Source: a virus
Taxonomy: Duplodnaviria > Heunggongvirae > Uroviricota > Caudoviricetes
Strand: one strand, 5' to 3'
Virus record (IMG/VR): IMGVR_UViG_3300018471_000072
Length of the DNA stretch: 5,346 bases
The position numbers and the translations under genes were made by a program. The notes under the pieces are model-generated. The model saw only the letters and a list, made by a program, of their open reading frames with translations. It did no database searches and was not told where the DNA came from. Below, one piece after another: positions 1 to 5,346 of the stretch (position 1 is its first letter; every line of letters begins with the position of its first letter).

Positions 1-37
1 ATCTACACTCTTTCCCTACACGACGCTCTTCCGATCT
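1..37 (+). other. Synthetic Illumina TruSeq universal adapter (3' portion), untrimmed at contig end; not biological sequence
   Basis: Bases 1-37 (ATCTACACTCTTTCCCTACACGACGCTCTTCCGATCT) match, base for base, the 3' end of the TruSeq universal adapter as I recall it. Phage-like coding sequence begins immediately after, at 38. Confidence 0.9.
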
Positions 38-39
38 CT

Positions 40-300
40 CAAAAACTTAAAAATCAGGTAACCGAAGGTAAGCTCATCGATTCAGACTTCTGCGTTTTCG
101 CCCTCAGCAAGCTGGCGATGGCATTGTCCAGTACGCTTGATTCTATTCCGTTATCCATGCAGCGACAGTTCCCGGATTTAACGCCACGTCATATTGACCA
201 TCTGAAAACCCTTATTGCGAAGGGCGCAAATCAGTGTGCGCGGGCAGGGGATAAATTACCGGATTTGCTGGATGAATATATCAGAGCAACAACTGAATAA
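40..300 (+). CDS. nu1: Terminase small subunit, C-terminal part only (5'-truncated by the contig/adapter boundary); lambda Nu1-like
   Basis: Frame 1 is open from the adapter junction to TAA at 298-300. The translation (...DFCVFALSKLAMALSSTLDSIPLSMQRQFPDLTPRHIDHLK...KLPDLLDEYIRATTE) aligns with the C-terminal third of lambda Nu1 as I recall it. The ORF-track start at ATG 118 is an internal Met, not the true start. The 3' end overlaps the start of the terminase large subunit, as in lambda. Confidence 0.8.
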   Translation, partial: QKLKNQVTEGKLIDSDFCVFALSKLAMALSSTLDSIPLSMQRQFPDLTPRHIDHLKTLIAKGANQCARAGDKLPDLLDEYIRATTE

Positions 301-2200
301 TATGATGGCTGCCGTTTCGGTTGCGCTGCAGCCTCTGGTCAGGGTTGTACCAATGACGGCAGTTGAATGGGCTGATCAAAATTATTATCTGCCTAAAGAA
401 TCCTCATACGGTGACGGCGAATGGAAAACGCTGCCGTTCCAGATCGCCATCATGAACAGTATGGGGAATGATCAGATCCGCACTGTTAATCTGATTAAAT
501 CTGCCCGTGTTGGCTATACAAAGATGTTGCTGGGGGTGGTCGGGTATTTTATTGAGCATAAATCCCGAAACAGTCTGCTTTTTCAGCCCACGGATTCTGC
601 CGCTGAAGATTTTATGAAGTCTCACGTGGAGACGACGATTAGGGACGTGCCATGCCTGAAAGACCTTTCCCCATGGCTGGGTCGTAAACATAGTGATAAT
701 ACCCTCACGCTGAAACGCTTTTCATCGGGCGTCGGTTTCTGGTGCCTGGGCGGCGCTGCCGCCAAAAACTACCGTGAAAAATCCGTGGACGTGGTCTGCT
801 ATGACGAACTTTCCTCGTTCGAACCGGATGTTGAAAAAGAGGGTTCGCCAACCCTGCTGGGGGATAAACGTATTGAGGGCTCTGTATGGCCAAAATCCAT
901 TCGCGGCTCGACGCCTAAAATCAAAGGCTCCTGCCAGATCGAAAAAGCCGCTAACGAGTCGGCACATTTCATGCGTTTTTATGTGCCCTGTCCGCACTGT
1001 GGGGAGGAGCAGTATCTGAAATTTGGCGATGAGTCCACGCCTTTTGGGCTTAAATGGGAGAAGGGAAGTCCCGAAAGTGTTTTCTACCTCTGTGAACATC
1101 ATGGCTGCGTGATCCATCAGTCTGAGCCTGACCAGAGCAACGGGCGCTGGATCTGTGAAAACACGGGGATGTGGACCCGTGACGGCCTGATGTTTTTCAG
1201 CGCCCGGGGTGATGAAATTCCGCCGCCGCGCTCCATCACTTTCCATATCTGGACGGCGTACAGTCCGTTCACCACCTGGGTACAGATAGTCTATGACTGG
1301 CTGGATGCACTGAAAGATCCCAACGGCCTGAAAACCTTTGTGAACACCACGCTGGGCGAGACCTGGGAAGAGGCTGTGGGCGAAAAACTCGATCACCAGG
1401 TACTGATGGATAAGGTTGTGCGTTACACGGCGGCGGTGCCTGCCCGGGTGGTTTATCTGACGGCGGGCATTGACTCGCAGCGAAACCGTTTTGAGATGTA
1501 TGTCTGGGGATGGGCTCCGGGAGAGGAAGCCTTTCTGGTGGATAAAATCATCATTATGGGGCGTCCCGATGAGGAAGAGACGCTGTTACGTGTGGATGCG
1601 GCGATCAACAAAAAATACTGCCATGCAGATGGAACCGAAATGACCATTTCCCGTGTCTGCTGGGACACCGGGGGGATCGATGGCGAAATCGTTTATCAGA
1701 GGTCAAAAAAACACGGTGTTTTCCGGGTGCTGCCGGTAAAAGGTGCATCTGTTTATGGCAAGCCGGTGATCACCATGCCAAAAACCCGCAATCAGCGGGG
1801 CGTGTATCTGTGCGAAGTGGGGACGGACACCGCAAAAGAAATTCTCTATGCCCGTATGAAAGCCGATCCCACGCCTGTGGATGAGGCCACGTCGTATGCC
1901 ATCCGTTTTCCTGATGATCCGGAGATTTTTTCGCAGACAGAGGCGCAGCAACTGGTCGCGGAAGAGCTTGTGGAGAAGTGGGAAAAAGGAAAGATGCGTC
2001 TGCTGTGGGATAACAAAAAGCGGCGTAACGAAGCGCTGGACTGCCTGGTGTATGCCTACGCGGCATTACGTGTGTCCGTGCAACGCTGGCAGCTTGATCT
2101 GGCTGTACTGGCAAAATCCCGGGAAGAAGAGACGACCCGGCCAACCCTTAAAGAACTGGCAGCGAAGCTGTCCGGAGGAGTGAATGGTTACAGTCGCTGA
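272..2200 (+). CDS. A: Terminase large subunit (ATPase/endonuclease), lambda gpA-like, 642 aa
   Basis: From ATG 272 the protein starts MNISEQQL..., where lambda gpA starts MNIS..., and similarity runs along the full length (TAVEWADQNYYLPKES, KSARVGYTKMLLG, GFWCLGG.AKNYREKSVDVVCYDE, GDKRIEGSVWPKSIRGSTPK, CPHCGEEQYLKFGD, HIWTAYSPFTTWVQIV, TFVNTTLGETWE, YLTAGIDSQ, KKRRNEALDC). The ORF-track start at TTG 215 is just the first in-frame start after a stop; homology supports ATG 272. Stop TGA at 2198-2200. Confidence 0.95.
   Translation: MNISEQQLNNMMAAVSVALQPLVRVVPMTAVEWADQNYYLPKESSYGDGEWKTLPFQIAIMNSMGNDQIRTVNLIKSARVGYTKMLLGVVGYFIEHKSRNSLLFQPTDSAAEDFMKSHVETTIRDVPCLKDLSPWLGRKHSDNTLTLKRFSSGVGFWCLGGAAAKNYREKSVDVVCYDELSSFEPDVEKEGSPTLLGDKRIEGSVWPKSIRGSTPKIKGSCQIEKAANESAHFMRFYVPCPHCGEEQYLKFGDESTPFGLKWEKGSPESVFYLCEHHGCVIHQSEPDQSNGRWICENTGMWTRDGLMFFSARGDEIPPPRSITFHIWTAYSPFTTWVQIVYDWLDALKDPNGLKTFVNTTLGETWEEAVGEKLDHQVLMDKVVRYTAAVPARVVYLTAGIDSQRNRFEMYVWGWAPGEEAFLVDKIIIMGRPDEEETLLRVDAAINKKYCHADGTEMTISRVCWDTGGIDGEIVYQRSKKHGVFRVLPVKGASVYGKPVITMPKTRNQRGVYLCEVGTDTAKEILYARMKADPTPVDEATSYAIRFPDDPEIFSQTEAQQLVAEELVEKWEKGKMRLLWDNKKRRNEALDCLVYAYAALRVSVQRWQLDLAVLAKSREEETTRPTLKELAAKLSGGVNGYSR
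2174..2180 (+). promoter_or_regulatory. Shine-Dalgarno sequence for the gpW-like gene, lying inside the 3' end of the terminase gene
   Basis: GGAGGAG, 3 nt upstream of ATG 2184. Confidence 0.6.
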
Positions 2201-2390
2201 ACTGCAGGCGCTGCGTCAGGCGCGCCTTGATTTATTAACCGGTAAACGGGTGGTGTCTGTCCAGAAAGATGGTCGCAGAATTGAATATACGGCGGCTTCT
2301 CTGGATGAGCTTAACCGGGCGATCAATGATGCGGAGTCGGTACTGGGGACAACCCGACGTCGCCGTCGTCCGCTGGGAGTGAGGTTATGA
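2184..2390 (+). CDS. W: Head completion / head-tail joining protein, lambda gpW-like, 68 aa
   Basis: 68 aa, the same length as lambda gpW, with clear similarity (LTGKRVVSVQKDGRRIEYTAAS; lambda has [22 protein letters not shown]). GGAGGAG at 2174-2180 sits 3 nt upstream of the ATG. It overlaps the end of the terminase gene by 17 nt and the portal start by ATGA. Confidence 0.85.
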   Translation: MVTVAELQALRQARLDLLTGKRVVSVQKDGRRIEYTAASLDELNRAINDAESVLGTTRRRRRPLGVRL

Positions 2391-3979
2391 AACGAACGCC
2401 TGTCCTGATTGATGTGAACGGCGTTCCGCTTCGGGAGAGCCTCAGCTACCACGGGGGCGGTGCAGGATTTGGCGGGCAAATGGCGGAGTGGTTGCCACCG
2501 GCGCAGAGTGCCGATGCGGCCCTGCTGCCCGCGTTGCGTCTGGGGAATGCCCGTGCAGATGATCTGGTACGCAATAACGGGATAGCGGCTAATGCGGTGG
2601 CCCTGCATAAGGATCATATTGTCGGGCATATGTTTCTGATCAGCTACCGTCCGAACTGGCGCTGGCTGGGGATGCGGGAGACTGCGGCAAAAAGTTTTGT
2701 CGATGAGGTGGAGGCGGCCTGGTCGGAATACGCAGAAGGGATGTCTGGCGAGATCGACGTGGAAGGGAAACGCACGTTTACGGAATTTATCCGTGAAGGT
2801 GTGGGCGTTCATGCGTTTAACGGCGAAATCTTTGTGCAGCCTGTCTGGGACACGGAGAGCACGCAGCTGTTTCGTACGCGTTTTAAAGCCGTGAGTCCGG
2901 AACGGGTGGACACGCCAGGACACGGTATGGGGAACCGTTTTCTGCGGGCCGGGGTGGAGGTCGATCGGCATGGCCGTGCAGTTGCGTACCATATCTGTGA
3001 GGATGATTTTCCGTTCTCTGGGAGTGGACGATGGGAACGGATCCCGCGTGAACTTCCCACCGGGCGCCCGGCCATGCTGCATATTTTCGAGCCGGTGGAG
3101 GACGGGCAGACCCGTGGGGCTAATCAGTTTTACAGCGTCATGGAACGGCTGAAGATGCTCGATTCCCTGCAGGCAACACAGCTTCAGTCGGCCATTGTCA
3201 AGGCAATGTATGCAGCGACGATTGAAAGTGACCTTGATACCGAAAAGGCCTTTGAATATATCGCGGGGGCACCGCAGGGTCAGAAGGATAATCCGCTCAT
3301 TAATATTCTGGAGAAGTTCTCCACCTGGTATGACACGAATAGCGTGACGCTGGGTGGTGTCAAAATTCCGCACCTTTTCCCCGGGGATGATCTGAAACTG
3401 CAGACCGCGCAGGATTCAGACAATGGATTTTCTGCGCTTGAACAGGCGCTGCTGCGGTATATCGCCGCCGGTCTTGGCGTTTCCTACGAACAGTTGTCCC
3501 GTGACTACTCGAAGGTCAGTTACTCAAGTGCCCGCGCCTCCGCCAATGAGTCGTGGCGCTATTTTATGGGGCGGCGAAAATTTATTGCGGCCCGGCTGGC
3601 CACGCAGATGTTTTCCTGCTGGCTGGAAGAGGCACTTCTTCGGGGGATTATTCGTCCGCCACGGGCGCGTTTTGATTTTTATCAGGCGCGTTCAGCCTGG
3701 TCACGGGCCGAGTGGATTGGTGCCGGAAGAATGGCCATTGACGGGCTCAAGGAAGTCCAGGAATCGGTGATGCGTATTGATTCCGGACTGAGCACGTATG
3801 AGAAAGAGCTGGCGCTGATGGGTGAGGATTATCAGGACATTTTCCGCCAGCAGGTCAGGGAATCCGCAGAGCGGGAAAAGGCCGGACTCTCACGTCCGGT
3901 GTGGATAGCACAGGCGTATCAGCAGCAGATAGCGGAGAGCCGCAGGCCGGAAGAGGAGACAACACCACGTGAGACGTAA
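2387..3979 (+). CDS. B: Portal protein, lambda gpB-like, 530 aa
   Basis: Similarity to lambda gpB (533 aa) along the whole length (YHGGGAGFGGQ, GNARADDLVRNNG.AANA, TWDT, FEPVEDGQTRGANQFYSVME, LQSAIVKAMYAATIES, LLRYIAAGLGVSYEQLSR, SYSSARASANESW.YFMGRRKF, WIGAGRMAIDGLKEVQE, GLSTYEKE). ATG 2387 overlaps the gpW stop; stop TAA at 3977-3979. Confidence 0.95.
   Translation: MKRTPVLIDVNGVPLRESLSYHGGGAGFGGQMAEWLPPAQSADAALLPALRLGNARADDLVRNNGIAANAVALHKDHIVGHMFLISYRPNWRWLGMRETAAKSFVDEVEAAWSEYAEGMSGEIDVEGKRTFTEFIREGVGVHAFNGEIFVQPVWDTESTQLFRTRFKAVSPERVDTPGHGMGNRFLRAGVEVDRHGRAVAYHICEDDFPFSGSGRWERIPRELPTGRPAMLHIFEPVEDGQTRGANQFYSVMERLKMLDSLQATQLQSAIVKAMYAATIESDLDTEKAFEYIAGAPQGQKDNPLINILEKFSTWYDTNSVTLGGVKIPHLFPGDDLKLQTAQDSDNGFSALEQALLRYIAAGLGVSYEQLSRDYSKVSYSSARASANESWRYFMGRRKFIAARLATQMFSCWLEEALLRGIIRPPRARFDFYQARSAWSRAEWIGAGRMAIDGLKEVQESVMRIDSGLSTYEKELALMGEDYQDIFRQQVRESAEREKAGLSRPVWIAQAYQQQIAESRRPEEETTPRET
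3954..3958 (+). promoter_or_regulatory. Shine-Dalgarno sequence for the gpC-like gene, lying inside the 3' end of the portal gene
   Basis: AGGAG, 10 nt upstream of GTG 3969, which is the first start codon in the open frame. Confidence 0.5.
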
Positions 3980-5346
3980 TCTTTCACACATTATTGCCGC
4001 AGCATTCAATGAACCGCTGCTTCTGGAGCCCGCCTATGCGCGGGTTTTCTTTTGCGCGCTCGGGCGCGAGATGGGGGCAGCAAGTCTTTCGGTACCACAA
4101 CAACAGGTACAGCTTGATGCTCCCGGAATGCTGGCTGAAACGGACGAGTATATGGCCGGAGGTAAACGACCGGCCCGTGTTTACCGGGTGGTGAACGGTA
4201 TTGCTGTACTGCCGGTGACCGGCACGCTGGTGCACCGTCTGGGTGGTATGCGGCCATTTTCCGGAATGACAGGCTATGACGGCATTGTCGCCTGTCTTCA
4301 GCAGGCAATGGCGGATAGCCAGGTGCGTGGCGTACTGCTGGACATTGACAGTCCGGGCGGGCAGGCCGCCGGCGCGTTTGACTGCGCTGACATGATTTAC
4401 CGCCTCCGTCAGCAGAAGCCGGTCTGGGCACTGTGCAATGACACGGCCTGTTCTGCAGCCATGCTGCTGGCGTCGGCCTGCTCCCGACGGCTGGTTACCC
4501 AGACATCCCGTATCGGCTCCATTGGCGTGATGATGAGCCATGTCAGCTATGCCGGTCATCTGGCGCAGGCCGGTGTGGATATCACGCTGATTTACGCCGG
4601 GGCGCATAAGGTGGATGGCAATCAGTTTGAAGCGTTGCCGGCAGAAGTTCGCCAGGACATGCAGCAGCGGATTGATGCGGCACACCGGATGTTTGCCGAA
4701 AAAGTGGCGATGTATACCGGTCTGTCTGTTGATGCCGTCACGGGAACAGAGGCCGCCGTTTTTGAAGGTCAGTACGGCATTGATGCCGGGCTGGCGGATG
4801 AATTAGTCAATGCGTCGGATGCCATCAGTGTGATGGCCACGGCGCTGAACAGTAATGTCAGAGGAGGCACTATGCCGCAATTAACTGCAACGGAAGCCGC
4901 CGCGCAGGAGAACCAGCGAGTGATGGGGATCCTGACATGCCAGGAAGCGAAAGGACGTGAACAGCTTGCCACGATGCTGGCAGGACAACAGGGCATGAGC
5001 GTTGAACAGGCCCGGGCGATTCTGTCCGCGGCAGCACCACAGCAACCGGTGGCATCCTCGCAGAGTGAAGCCGATCGCATTATGGCGTGTGAAGAGGCTA
5101 AAGGTCGTGAACAACTGGCGGCAACGCTGGCGGCGATGCCGGAGATGACGGTGGAAAAAGCCCGCCCGATCCTGGCTGCTTCACCGCAGGCGGATGCCGG
5201 ACCCTCACTCCGTGATCAGATCATGGCACTGGATGAGGCAAAAGGGGCTGAGGCGCAGGCTGAACAGCTGGCTGCCTGCCCGGGAATGACAGTGGAGAGC
5301 GCCCGGGCTGTGCTGGCTGCGGGATCAGGTAAGGCAGAACAGATCG
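3969..5346 (+). CDS. C: Prohead protease / scaffold protein, lambda gpC-like (S49/ClpP-like serine protease family), 3'-incomplete (runs off the window end)
   Basis: Frame 3 is open from the TAG at 3930-3932 to the window end. The first start codon is GTG 3969, preceded by AGGAG at 3954-3958 with a 10-nt spacer. The translation (MRRNLSHIIAAAFNEPLLLEPAYARVFFCAL...VVNGIAVLPVTGTL...FSGMTGYDGIV...LLDIDSPGG.AAGAFDCAD...KPVWALCNDTACSAAMLLASA.SRRLVTQTSRIGSIGVMM...GLADELVN.SDAI) aligns with lambda gpC. It is absent from the ORF track only because no stop codon falls inside the window. Confidence 0.9.
   Translation, partial: MRRNLSHIIAAAFNEPLLLEPAYARVFFCALGREMGAASLSVPQQQVQLDAPGMLAETDEYMAGGKRPARVYRVVNGIAVLPVTGTLVHRLGGMRPFSGMTGYDGIVACLQQAMADSQVRGVLLDIDSPGGQAAGAFDCADMIYRLRQQKPVWALCNDTACSAAMLLASACSRRLVTQTSRIGSIGVMMSHVSYAGHLAQAGVDITLIYAGAHKVDGNQFEALPAEVRQDMQQRIDAAHRMFAEKVAMYTGLSVDAVTGTEAAVFEGQYGIDAGLADELVNASDAISVMATALNSNVRGGTMPQLTATEAAAQENQRVMGILTCQEAKGREQLATMLAGQQGMSVEQARAILSAAAPQQPVASSQSEADRIMACEEAKGREQLAATLAAMPEMTVEKARPILAASPQADAGPSLRDQIMALDEAKGAEAQAEQLAACPGMTVESARAVLAAGSGKAEQI
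4861..4867 (+). promoter_or_regulatory. Internal Shine-Dalgarno sequence for the putative nested scaffold start
   Basis: GAGGAGG, 4 nt upstream of in-frame ATG 4872, inside the gpC-like reading frame. Confidence 0.5.
4872..5346 (+). CDS. Possible nested in-frame scaffold protein (lambda Nu3-like), translated from an internal start in the gpC-like frame; 3'-incomplete
   Basis: In-frame ATG at 4872 is preceded by a strong Shine-Dalgarno GAGGAGG (4861-4867) with a 4-nt spacer. Its position after the protease domain matches where lambda Nu3 initiates inside gene C (lambda ...SGGRMTKETQ..., here ...VRGGTMPQLTA...). Inference by analogy, no expression evidence. Confidence 0.45.
   Translation, partial: MPQLTATEAAAQENQRVMGILTCQEAKGREQLATMLAGQQGMSVEQARAILSAAAPQQPVASSQSEADRIMACEEAKGREQLAATLAAMPEMTVEKARPILAASPQADAGPSLRDQIMALDEAKGAEAQAEQLAACPGMTVESARAVLAAGSGKAEQI
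4908..5346 (+). repeat. Three tandem in-frame copies of a ~47-53 aa motif in the scaffold (C-terminal) region of the gpC-like protein; diverged at the DNA level
   Basis: Translated copies: (1) ENQRVMGILTCQEAKGREQLATMLAGQQGMSVEQARAILSAAAPQQ, (2) EADRIMACEEAKGREQLAATLAAMPEMTVEKARPILAASPQAD, (3) RDQIMALDEAKGAEAQAEQLAACPGMTVESARAVLAAGSG. The IM codons lie at 4920-4925, 5079-5084 and 5220-5225, giving spacings of 159 and 141 nt. The third copy reaches the window edge. Confidence 0.65.

What the first reader, a model, noticed from the sequence alone, without database searches (positions are those of the whole stretch)
1..37. Untrimmed Illumina adapter forms the 5' end of the contig
Bases 1-37 are identical to the 3' end of the TruSeq universal adapter, and phage coding sequence starts at 38 in the middle of a terminase small-subunit gene. 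The contig end is therefore a technical artifact: it is not a physical genome terminus, cos site or prophage boundary. Any gene call or homology hit touching 1-37 is spurious, and the Nu1-like gene is artificially truncated.
Basis: partly seen in the sequence, partly recalled or inferred. Interest (0 to 1): 0.5.

Follow-up and report, generated by a model that had tools for sequence, protein, structure and literature searches.

The report
Leftover Illumina adapter at contig end
The first 37 bases of this contig are leftover synthetic Illumina sequencing adapter stuck onto the middle of a lambda-like phage packaging gene from E. coli, so the contig end is a laboratory or assembly artefact and not a biological boundary.

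Summary
The observation and its interpretation both hold.

**The adapter.** Window 1-37 is identical, 37 of 37 bases, to the last 37 nt of the 58-nt Illumina universal adapter (also called PE PCR primer 1.0). No shuffle of the window gives a match.

**The junction.** Similarity to about 1,900 E. coli lambdoid prophage records starts exactly at base 38. None extends further left. The relatives carry ordinary nu1 sequence at that point.

**What is missing.** Base 38 is the second base of codon 82 of a 168-codon Nu1-family small terminase gene. So 244 nt of the gene are absent. The cosN cohesive-end sequence lies 472 nt upstream of the junction in relatives and is absent from the window.

**Effect on gene calls.** The adapter is open in the nu1 reading frame. 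A partial gene call would therefore start with 12 adapter-encoded residues (IYTLSLHDALPI) and a hybrid junction codon.

**The other end.** The last six bases (5341-5346, AGATCG) are probably adapter too. They match the start of AGATCGGAAGAGC, and homology to relatives stops at 5340. All 121 natural copies of the preceding 19-mer continue differently.

**What is real.** Bases 38-5340 are one unbroken, ordinary lambda-like head-gene block: nu1 (3' part), gpA, gpW, portal and S49 protease.

Interest is low. This is a quality-control matter.

The parts
1..37 (+). Synthetic DNA: the last 37 nt of the 58-nt Illumina universal adapter / PE PCR primer 1.0. Bases 1-4 are the end of the P5 part and bases 5-37 are the read-1 sequencing-primer stub.
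   Evidence: Exact 37/37 match. The adapter sequence is documented in PMC7327805 and PMC6791352. 0 of 200 shuffles match. The same 32-37 nt stretch occurs in 7 unrelated phage records. It is absent from all 5,426 complete E. coli genomes apart from one 28-nt copy inside a frameshifted fliI.
38..300 (+). Genuine 3' part of a Nu1-family small terminase gene, running from the second base of codon 82 to the stop codon at 298-300. The first 244 nt of the gene are missing.
   Evidence: Aligns from base 38 with annotated 'terminase small subunit' genes at 98% identity. BLASTP gives 85/88 identical residues to positions 81-168 of WP_001519435.1. Pfam Phage_Nu1 scores 60.3 bits on profile positions 95-163 of 164.
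1..39 (+). Spurious start of the reading frame. Frame 1 has no stop codon across the adapter, giving IYTLSLHDALPI plus a hybrid junction codon TCT (Ser) where relatives have GCT (Ala).
   Evidence: Translations. The protein alignment shows identity starting at residue 14 (Gln).
272..2200 (+). Large terminase subunit (gpA family), complete at 642 aa. It overlaps the end of nu1 by 29 nt.
   Evidence: Pfam GpA_ATPase 187.5 bits and GpA_nuclease 240 bits. The start codon is placed by the RefSeq annotation of relatives.
2184..2390 (+). gpW head-tail joining protein, 68 aa.
   Evidence: Pfam gpW 79.9 bits. Annotated as such in relatives.
2387..3979 (+). Lambda-family portal protein, 530 aa.
   Evidence: Pfam Phage_portal_2 337.7 bits.
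3969..5340 (+). S49 peptidase (gpC-like head protease/scaffold), cut off at the 3' end of the contig. About 457 of 501 codons are present.
   Evidence: Pfam Peptidase_S49 123.2 bits. The full gene occupies 5432-6937 in L002.
5341..5346 (+). Probable second adapter remnant: AGATCG, the first 6 nt of the read-through sequence AGATCGGAAGAGC. This is probable, not proven.
   Evidence: All listed E. coli alignments stop at 5338-5340. The 121 natural copies of the preceding 19-mer continue with CGGTCT (112) or CGGTTT (9), never AGATCG. The terminal 25-mer is absent from the viral and metagenome collections. Alignment.

Best explanation
Bases 1-37 are untrimmed Illumina adapter, not biology.

What is shown: a library fragment had one end at the native position that is now window base 38, and the universal adapter was joined to it.

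What is inferred: at least one read carrying adapter next to insert survived trimming. The most likely source is read-through on a short insert, because the reverse complement of 1-37 is the usual read-2 read-through string AGATCGGAAGAGCGTCGTGTAGGGAAAGAGTGTAGAT. The assembler then used that read to extend the contig end and stopped inside the adapter. It would stop there either because no other reads covered the upstream nu1/cos region or because adapter sequence forms a dead end or tangle in the assembly graph.

The native part, 38-5340, is one unbroken stretch of an E. coli lambdoid phage or prophage head module: nu1 (3' part), gpA, gpW, portal and S49 protease. The 3' end very probably stops the same way, with 6 nt of adapter.
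For: - The 37/37 identity to the adapter's 3' end stops at the adapter's terminal T, and no shuffle matches.
- Homology to 1,910 E. coli records starts at base 38 in all 20 listed, best-ranked hits, so none of the 1,910 extends further left. The whole-window search gives a single alignment piece from 38 to 5338-5340 at 97.4-98.3% identity in 11 of the 12 listed records. The twelfth is in two pieces because that genome carries an IS3 insertion. This argues against an internal chimera in the window.
- Relatives carry ...GAACAGGCCGTAG before CTCAAAAAC. All 11 IMG/VR contigs with the native 25-mer show the same upstream sequence.
- The 32-37 nt adapter stretch also sits in 7 phage records from unrelated hosts (Chryseobacterium, Bifidobacterium, Klebsiella, Enterococcus, E. 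coli). Four of those copies lie within 300 nt of a record end.
- The full 37-mer is not found in any of 5,426 complete E. coli genomes.
- No other adapter 12-mers occur in the window.
Against: Nothing contradicts the artefact reading. Three things are not shown. No reads are available, so the read-through route and the reason the assembly stopped are inferred. The source contig was not found in any public collection searched, so I cannot confirm that the window is the whole contig. The 3' remnant is only 6 nt long.
Confidence: 0.97

Rival explanations
1. The adapter is synthetic, but its junction at base 38 marks a real in vivo DNA end inside nu1, such as an aberrant cleavage or degradation end in virion or induced-prophage DNA, rather than a random shearing break.
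For: Adapter ligation captures any free DNA end, and the sequence alone cannot say how the end arose. No tool result supports this reading specifically.
Against: The known physical end of this phage type, the cosN 12-mer, lies 472 nt upstream in relatives. Library fragment ends are overwhelmingly made by shearing (general knowledge of library preparation). Nothing distinctive was noticed in the sequence at 38.
Confidence: 0.02
2. Bases 1-37 are native phage or bacterial sequence that resembles the adapter by chance or by common descent.
For: None.
Against: The chance of such a match is about 5e-23, and 0 of 200 shuffles match. Homology in the 1,910 homologous E. coli records starts at base 38, with none extending left, and the three relatives read upstream plus 11 IMG/VR contigs all carry different native sequence at that spot. 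The same string appears in phages of unrelated hosts, mostly near record ends.
Confidence: 0.001
3. The contig corresponds to one long library molecule of about 5.3 kb with adapter on both ends, for example from a long-fragment or synthetic-long-read protocol, rather than an ordinary short-read assembly that ran into adapter at two independent places.
For: Adapter-like sequence lies at both ends in the orientation of a single library strand: universal adapter, then insert, then AGATCG.
Against: That orientation is the only one possible for adapter at any contig end, so it does not discriminate. The 3' piece is only 6 nt long. Standard libraries carrying this adapter have inserts far shorter than 5.3 kb (general knowledge).
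Confidence: 0.03

Closest known systems
Illumina universal adapter / PE PCR primer 1.0 (58 nt, AATGATACGGCGACCACCGAGATCTACACTCTTTCCCTACACGACGCTCTTCCGATCT)
   Same: Window 1-37 is identical to its last 37 nt and ends on the adapter's terminal T, where the insert is ligated.
   Different: Only 37 of the 58 nt are present, and the first 21 nt of P5 are missing. The ATCT just before ACAC fits the design with no i5 index. In dual-indexed designs an 8-nt tag sits at that position (PMC6791352). The sequence does not identify the exact kit.
Adapter-contaminated public records, such as Escherichia phage vB_EcoP-R1 OQ703102.1 (adapter at 40844-40875 of 40875) and E. coli AREA_R485 NZ_CP123349.1 (adapter inside fliI)
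   Same: They carry the same read-1 stub sequence, typically near a record end or breaking a gene.
   Different: Six of the seven phage records match only from base 5 or 6, so they differ from the window in the bases upstream of the stub. In AREA_R485 the adapter piece is internal and the gene is annotated as frameshifted.
Phage lambda Nu1 / cos packaging region
   Same: The native part of the window has the gene order nu1, A, W, B, C-like protease, with Pfam matches to Phage_Nu1, GpA, gpW and the lambda-family portal. Relatives carry the cohesive-end 12-mer GGGCGGCGACCT, which I recognise from memory as lambda's, 217 nt before the nu1 start codon.
   Different: The window lacks cos and the first 81 codons of nu1. 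In lambda that N-terminal part holds the DNA-binding domain (from my own knowledge of gpNu1). The gene is 168 codons in relatives. The closest named phages (PhiR12 series) are only 92% identical, and only from base 88 onward.

Membership tests
Illumina adapter contamination at a contig end | Exact identity to a published adapter, running up to the adapter's ligation end | tested here: met
   37/37 identical, ending in ...CCGATCT. The adapter sequence is quoted in PMC7327805.
Illumina adapter contamination at a contig end | Homology to native relatives breaks exactly at the adapter/insert junction | tested here: met
   All listed E. coli hits start at query base 38. The alignment shows unrelated sequence to the left of the junction.
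Illumina adapter contamination at a contig end | The same string is found in unrelated organisms' records and is not native to the host species | tested here: met
   It occurs in 7 phage records from hosts in different phyla. Only one 28-nt copy exists in 5,426 E. coli genomes, inside a gene annotated as frameshifted.
Illumina adapter contamination at a contig end | Reads soft-clip, or coverage collapses, at the junction | not testable with these tools
   No reads are available, and the source contig was not found in the public collections.
Phage_Nu1 small terminase (Pfam PF07471) | Score above Pfam's gathering cut-off | tested here: met
   The window fragment scores 60.3 bits and the full-length relative 74.5 bits, against a cut-off of 30.
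Phage_Nu1 small terminase (Pfam PF07471) | N-terminal part of the family profile (the DNA-binding region in lambda Nu1) is present | tested here: not met
   The window matches only profile positions 95-163 of 164, whereas the relative's protein matches 4-163. The absence comes from the truncation at base 38, not from the gene itself.
Phage_Nu1 small terminase (Pfam PF07471) | Lies directly upstream of, and overlapping, a gpA-type large terminase gene | tested here: met
   nu1 ends at 300 and gpA runs 272-2200, with GpA_ATPase and GpA_nuclease domains.
cos-type physical genome terminus | The contig end coincides with the cohesive-end site (cosN 12-mer GGGCGGCGACCT) | tested here: not met
   The 12-mer is absent from the window even at 2 mismatches. 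It lies 471-473 nt upstream of the junction in 14 related loci.

The most novel reading that the evidence does not exclude
The adapter junction at base 38 records a genuine in vivo DNA end inside nu1, 472 nt from cosN. Such an end could come from an aberrant terminase cut or a degradation intermediate in packaged or induced phage DNA, rather than from random shearing.
Probability: 0.02. Interest if true: 0.2.

Novelty: not a real feature. Interest (0 to 1): 0.05.

Why it matters
This matters only for data hygiene.
- The contig end must not be read as a phage terminus, cos site or prophage boundary.
- The nu1 gene must not be scored as truncated or degraded.
- The first 12 residues and the junction codon of any protein called from base 1 are synthetic and would pollute protein databases.
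- Bases 1-37, and probably 5341-5346, should be masked before any similarity search. Otherwise the contig will appear linked to unrelated adapter-contaminated records.

Tried and rejected
**Finding the source contig or an independent copy of the junction.** An exact 40-mer spanning 24-63 gave 0 hits in the viral, genome and metagenome collections.

**Looking up the window's proteins by exact sequence.** I tried gpA from two start codons, the portal protein, and the adapter-fused nu1 product. None is on record.

**Checking whether the terminal AGATCG is a natural variant.** The terminal 25-mer is absent from the viral and metagenome collections. This supports adapter but cannot prove it for 6 nt.

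**Literature search for the adapter-derived peptide strings** (LHDALPI, PTRRSSDL, YTTLFRS). It found one unrelated paper, so I make no literature claim about such peptides.

**Considered and rejected:**
- Chance resemblance.
- A cos end.
- An internal chimera in the window. Alignment to relatives is a single piece in 11 of the 12 listed records, and the exception is caused by an IS3 insertion in that relative. No other adapter 12-mers occur in the window.

Full report
**Observation**

The window opens with ATCTACACTCTTTCCCTACACGACGCTCTTCCGATCT. A direct string comparison shows this equals the last 37 nt of the 58-nt oligonucleotide AATGATACGGCGACCACCGAGATCTACACTCTTTCCCTACACGACGCTCTTCCGATCT. 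The window prefix matches no longer suffix of that oligonucleotide.

The 58-mer is not taken from memory alone. PMC7327805 quotes it as the Illumina forward adapter. PMC6791352 lists its 33-nt read-1 stub, which is window 5-37, together with the P5 part ending in ...GAGATCTACAC. A 40-mer spanning window 1-37 occurs in 708 papers, as expected for a standard reagent.

The pattern occurs once in the window, at 1-37 with no mismatch. None of 200 dinucleotide-preserving shuffles gives a match, even when 3 mismatches are allowed. The chance of an exact 37-mer at a fixed position is about 5e-23. No other adapter 12-mers, TruSeq or Nextera, occur anywhere else in the window.

**Where native sequence starts**

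Megablast of 1-1200 against 5,426 complete E. coli genomes finds 1,910 records. In every listed hit the alignment starts at query base 38, at up to 98.2% identity, under genes annotated 'terminase small subunit' and 'phage terminase large subunit family protein'.

The whole window aligns from 38 to 5338-5340 at 97.4-98.3% identity. It does so as a single piece in 11 of the 12 listed records. The twelfth is split in two by an IS3 insertion in that genome. The native part therefore shows no sign of an internal chimera.

A base-level alignment with strain KC-Dl-1 shows identity from base 38 onward. To the left, the relative reads ...GAACAGGCCGTAG and the window carries adapter. Window base 37 is T and the native base is G, so the junction is unambiguous.

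All 11 have the same native upstream sequence, with at most one substitution.

**What is cut**

In KC-Dl-1 the small terminase gene occupies L001 2757-3263, which is 168 codons. Window base 38 corresponds to L001 3001. So 244 nt are missing, and base 38 is the second base of codon 82.

The full-length relative scores 74.5 bits on Pfam Phage_Nu1, covering profile positions 4-163. The window fragment scores 60.3 bits on profile positions 95-163 only. The cut-off is 30. 'Nu1-like' is therefore correct, and the N-terminal half of the protein is absent from the contig. In lambda Nu1 that half holds the DNA-binding domain, which I state from my own knowledge.

BLASTP of the window's frame-1 translation against the relative gives 85 of 88 identical residues over relative positions 81-168.

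Frame 1 has no stop codon across the adapter, so it reads IYTLSLHDALPI. A hybrid junction codon TCT (Ser) follows where relatives have GCT (Ala), and genuine Nu1 sequence follows that. A gene caller allowed to start at the contig edge would therefore produce a protein with a synthetic N-terminus.

**Not cos and not a prophage edge**

The upstream region of KC-Dl-1 contains CAGGTTACG|GGGCGGCGACCT|CGCGG.... I recognise this from memory as the lambda-type cohesive-end site.

The 12-mer lies at L001 2529-2540 and at L002 and L003 1029-1040. In each case that is 472 nt upstream of the base homologous to window 38. In the 11 IMG/VR contigs it lies 471-473 nt upstream. The window contains no copy, even at 2 mismatches.

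Relatives also continue upstream of cos into further genes annotated with prophage-type names, such as ylcI/ynfO-family, gnsB and cspI. The contig end is therefore neither a physical phage end nor an integration boundary.

**Hits to bases 1-37**

A search with 1-37 alone finds seven phage records. Their hosts are as different as Chryseobacterium, Bifidobacterium, Klebsiella, Enterococcus and E. coli. Four of the copies lie within 300 nt of a record end, for example 40844-40875 of 40875 in OQ703102.1. This pattern fits shared contamination, not homology.

Six of the seven match only from base 5 or 6, which is the read-1 stub. Only one record matches 1-37. This fits libraries that differ in the bases upstream of the stub. 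The window's ATCT before ACAC fits the adapter design with no i5 index (table).

Among 5,426 complete E. coli genomes, only one carries any of it. That copy is 28 nt long and sits inside fliI of strain AREA_R485, where the gene is annotated as frameshifted.

**The other end of the window**

All listed E. coli alignments stop at 5338-5340, not at 5346. The last six bases are AGATCG, which are the first six bases of the adapter read-through string AGATCGGAAGAGC (one search lists both read-through sequences).

Two close relatives read CGGTCT and CTATCT at that position. Across 121 natural occurrences of the preceding 19-mer, the next six bases are CGGTCT (112 times) or CGGTTT (9 times), and never AGATCG. 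The window's terminal 25-mer is absent from both the viral and the metagenome collections.

So three of the last six bases differ from the dominant natural sequence, and all three differences point towards the adapter. The preceding 141 nt, by contrast, are 99.3% identical to many genomes. I judge a second adapter remnant to be about 80% likely. Six bases cannot prove it.

**Mechanism**

The shown part is that adapter is fused to a fragment end at native position 38.

The rest is inferred. The reverse complement of 1-37 is the string seen when a read runs through a short insert into the universal adapter. An untrimmed read of that kind probably supplied the contig's last bases. The assembly then stopped there, either because coverage upstream was lacking or because adapter sequence is a dead end or tangle in the assembly graph. 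Reads would be needed to confirm this.

**Attempts to find the source**

The junction 40-mer is absent from the viral, genome and metagenome collections. None of four window proteins is on record by exact sequence.

**Comparison with known things, and verdict**

The feature is a textbook case of adapter contamination at a contig end. The biology next to it is an ordinary E. coli lambdoid head module: nu1 3' part at 38-300, gpA at 272-2200, gpW at 2184-2390, portal at 2387-3979, and S49 protease from 3969 onward.

Kit attribution is not unique. Only 12 residues and the junction codon of the gene call are spurious. The 3' end is probably affected too.

It is not a biological feature, and interest is low.

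Noticed in passing
window 5341-5346: The last six bases, AGATCG, equal the start of the adapter read-through AGATCGGAAGAGC. Homology to relatives stops at 5340. None of the 121 natural copies of the preceding 19-mer continues this way, so the 3' end is probably adapter-tipped as well.
   Followed up: partly
GenBank phage records KT254133.1, PQ571273.1, OU509537.1, MW202825.1, OR360270.1, PQ462667.1, OQ703102.1: Seven deposited phage genomes carry the same 32-37 nt of Illumina adapter. Four copies lie within 300 nt of a record end. Two lie under annotated genes ('hypothetical protein' and 'endonuclease').
   Followed up: no
L124 301-328 (NZ_CP123349.1, E. coli AREA_R485, fliI): A 'complete' RefSeq E. 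coli genome has 28 nt of the same adapter inside fliI, and the gene is annotated as frameshifted. This is probably an assembly artefact that creates a false pseudogene.
   Followed up: partly
L003 about 1400-1405 (E. coli ST866 prophage, the closest relative over the whole window): In ST866 the nu1 gene carries a GAG-to-TAG stop codon upstream of the position that matches window 38. RefSeq annotates the gene as a partial pseudogene. Natural nu1 defects therefore exist in close relatives, and the window cannot show whether its own nu1 was intact.
   Followed up: partly
window 38-1200: Similarity is mosaic. E. coli prophages match from base 38 at 98%. The named PhiR12-series phages match only from base 88, at 92%. 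Phage 21, ev017 and lambda-like phages match only from base 346, at 87%. The nu1 3' end and the gpA 5' end therefore have different histories.
   Followed up: no
window 38-5340: E. coli genomes that carry this head module hold a median of 2 and up to 5 copies. Such repeats could themselves break short-read assemblies near this region.
   Followed up: no
window 272-300, 2184-2200, 2387-2390, 3969-3979: All four consecutive gene pairs overlap: nu1/gpA by 29 nt, gpA/gpW by 17 nt, gpW/portal by 4 nt, and portal/protease by 11 nt. The relatives' annotation shows the same overlaps.
   Followed up: no
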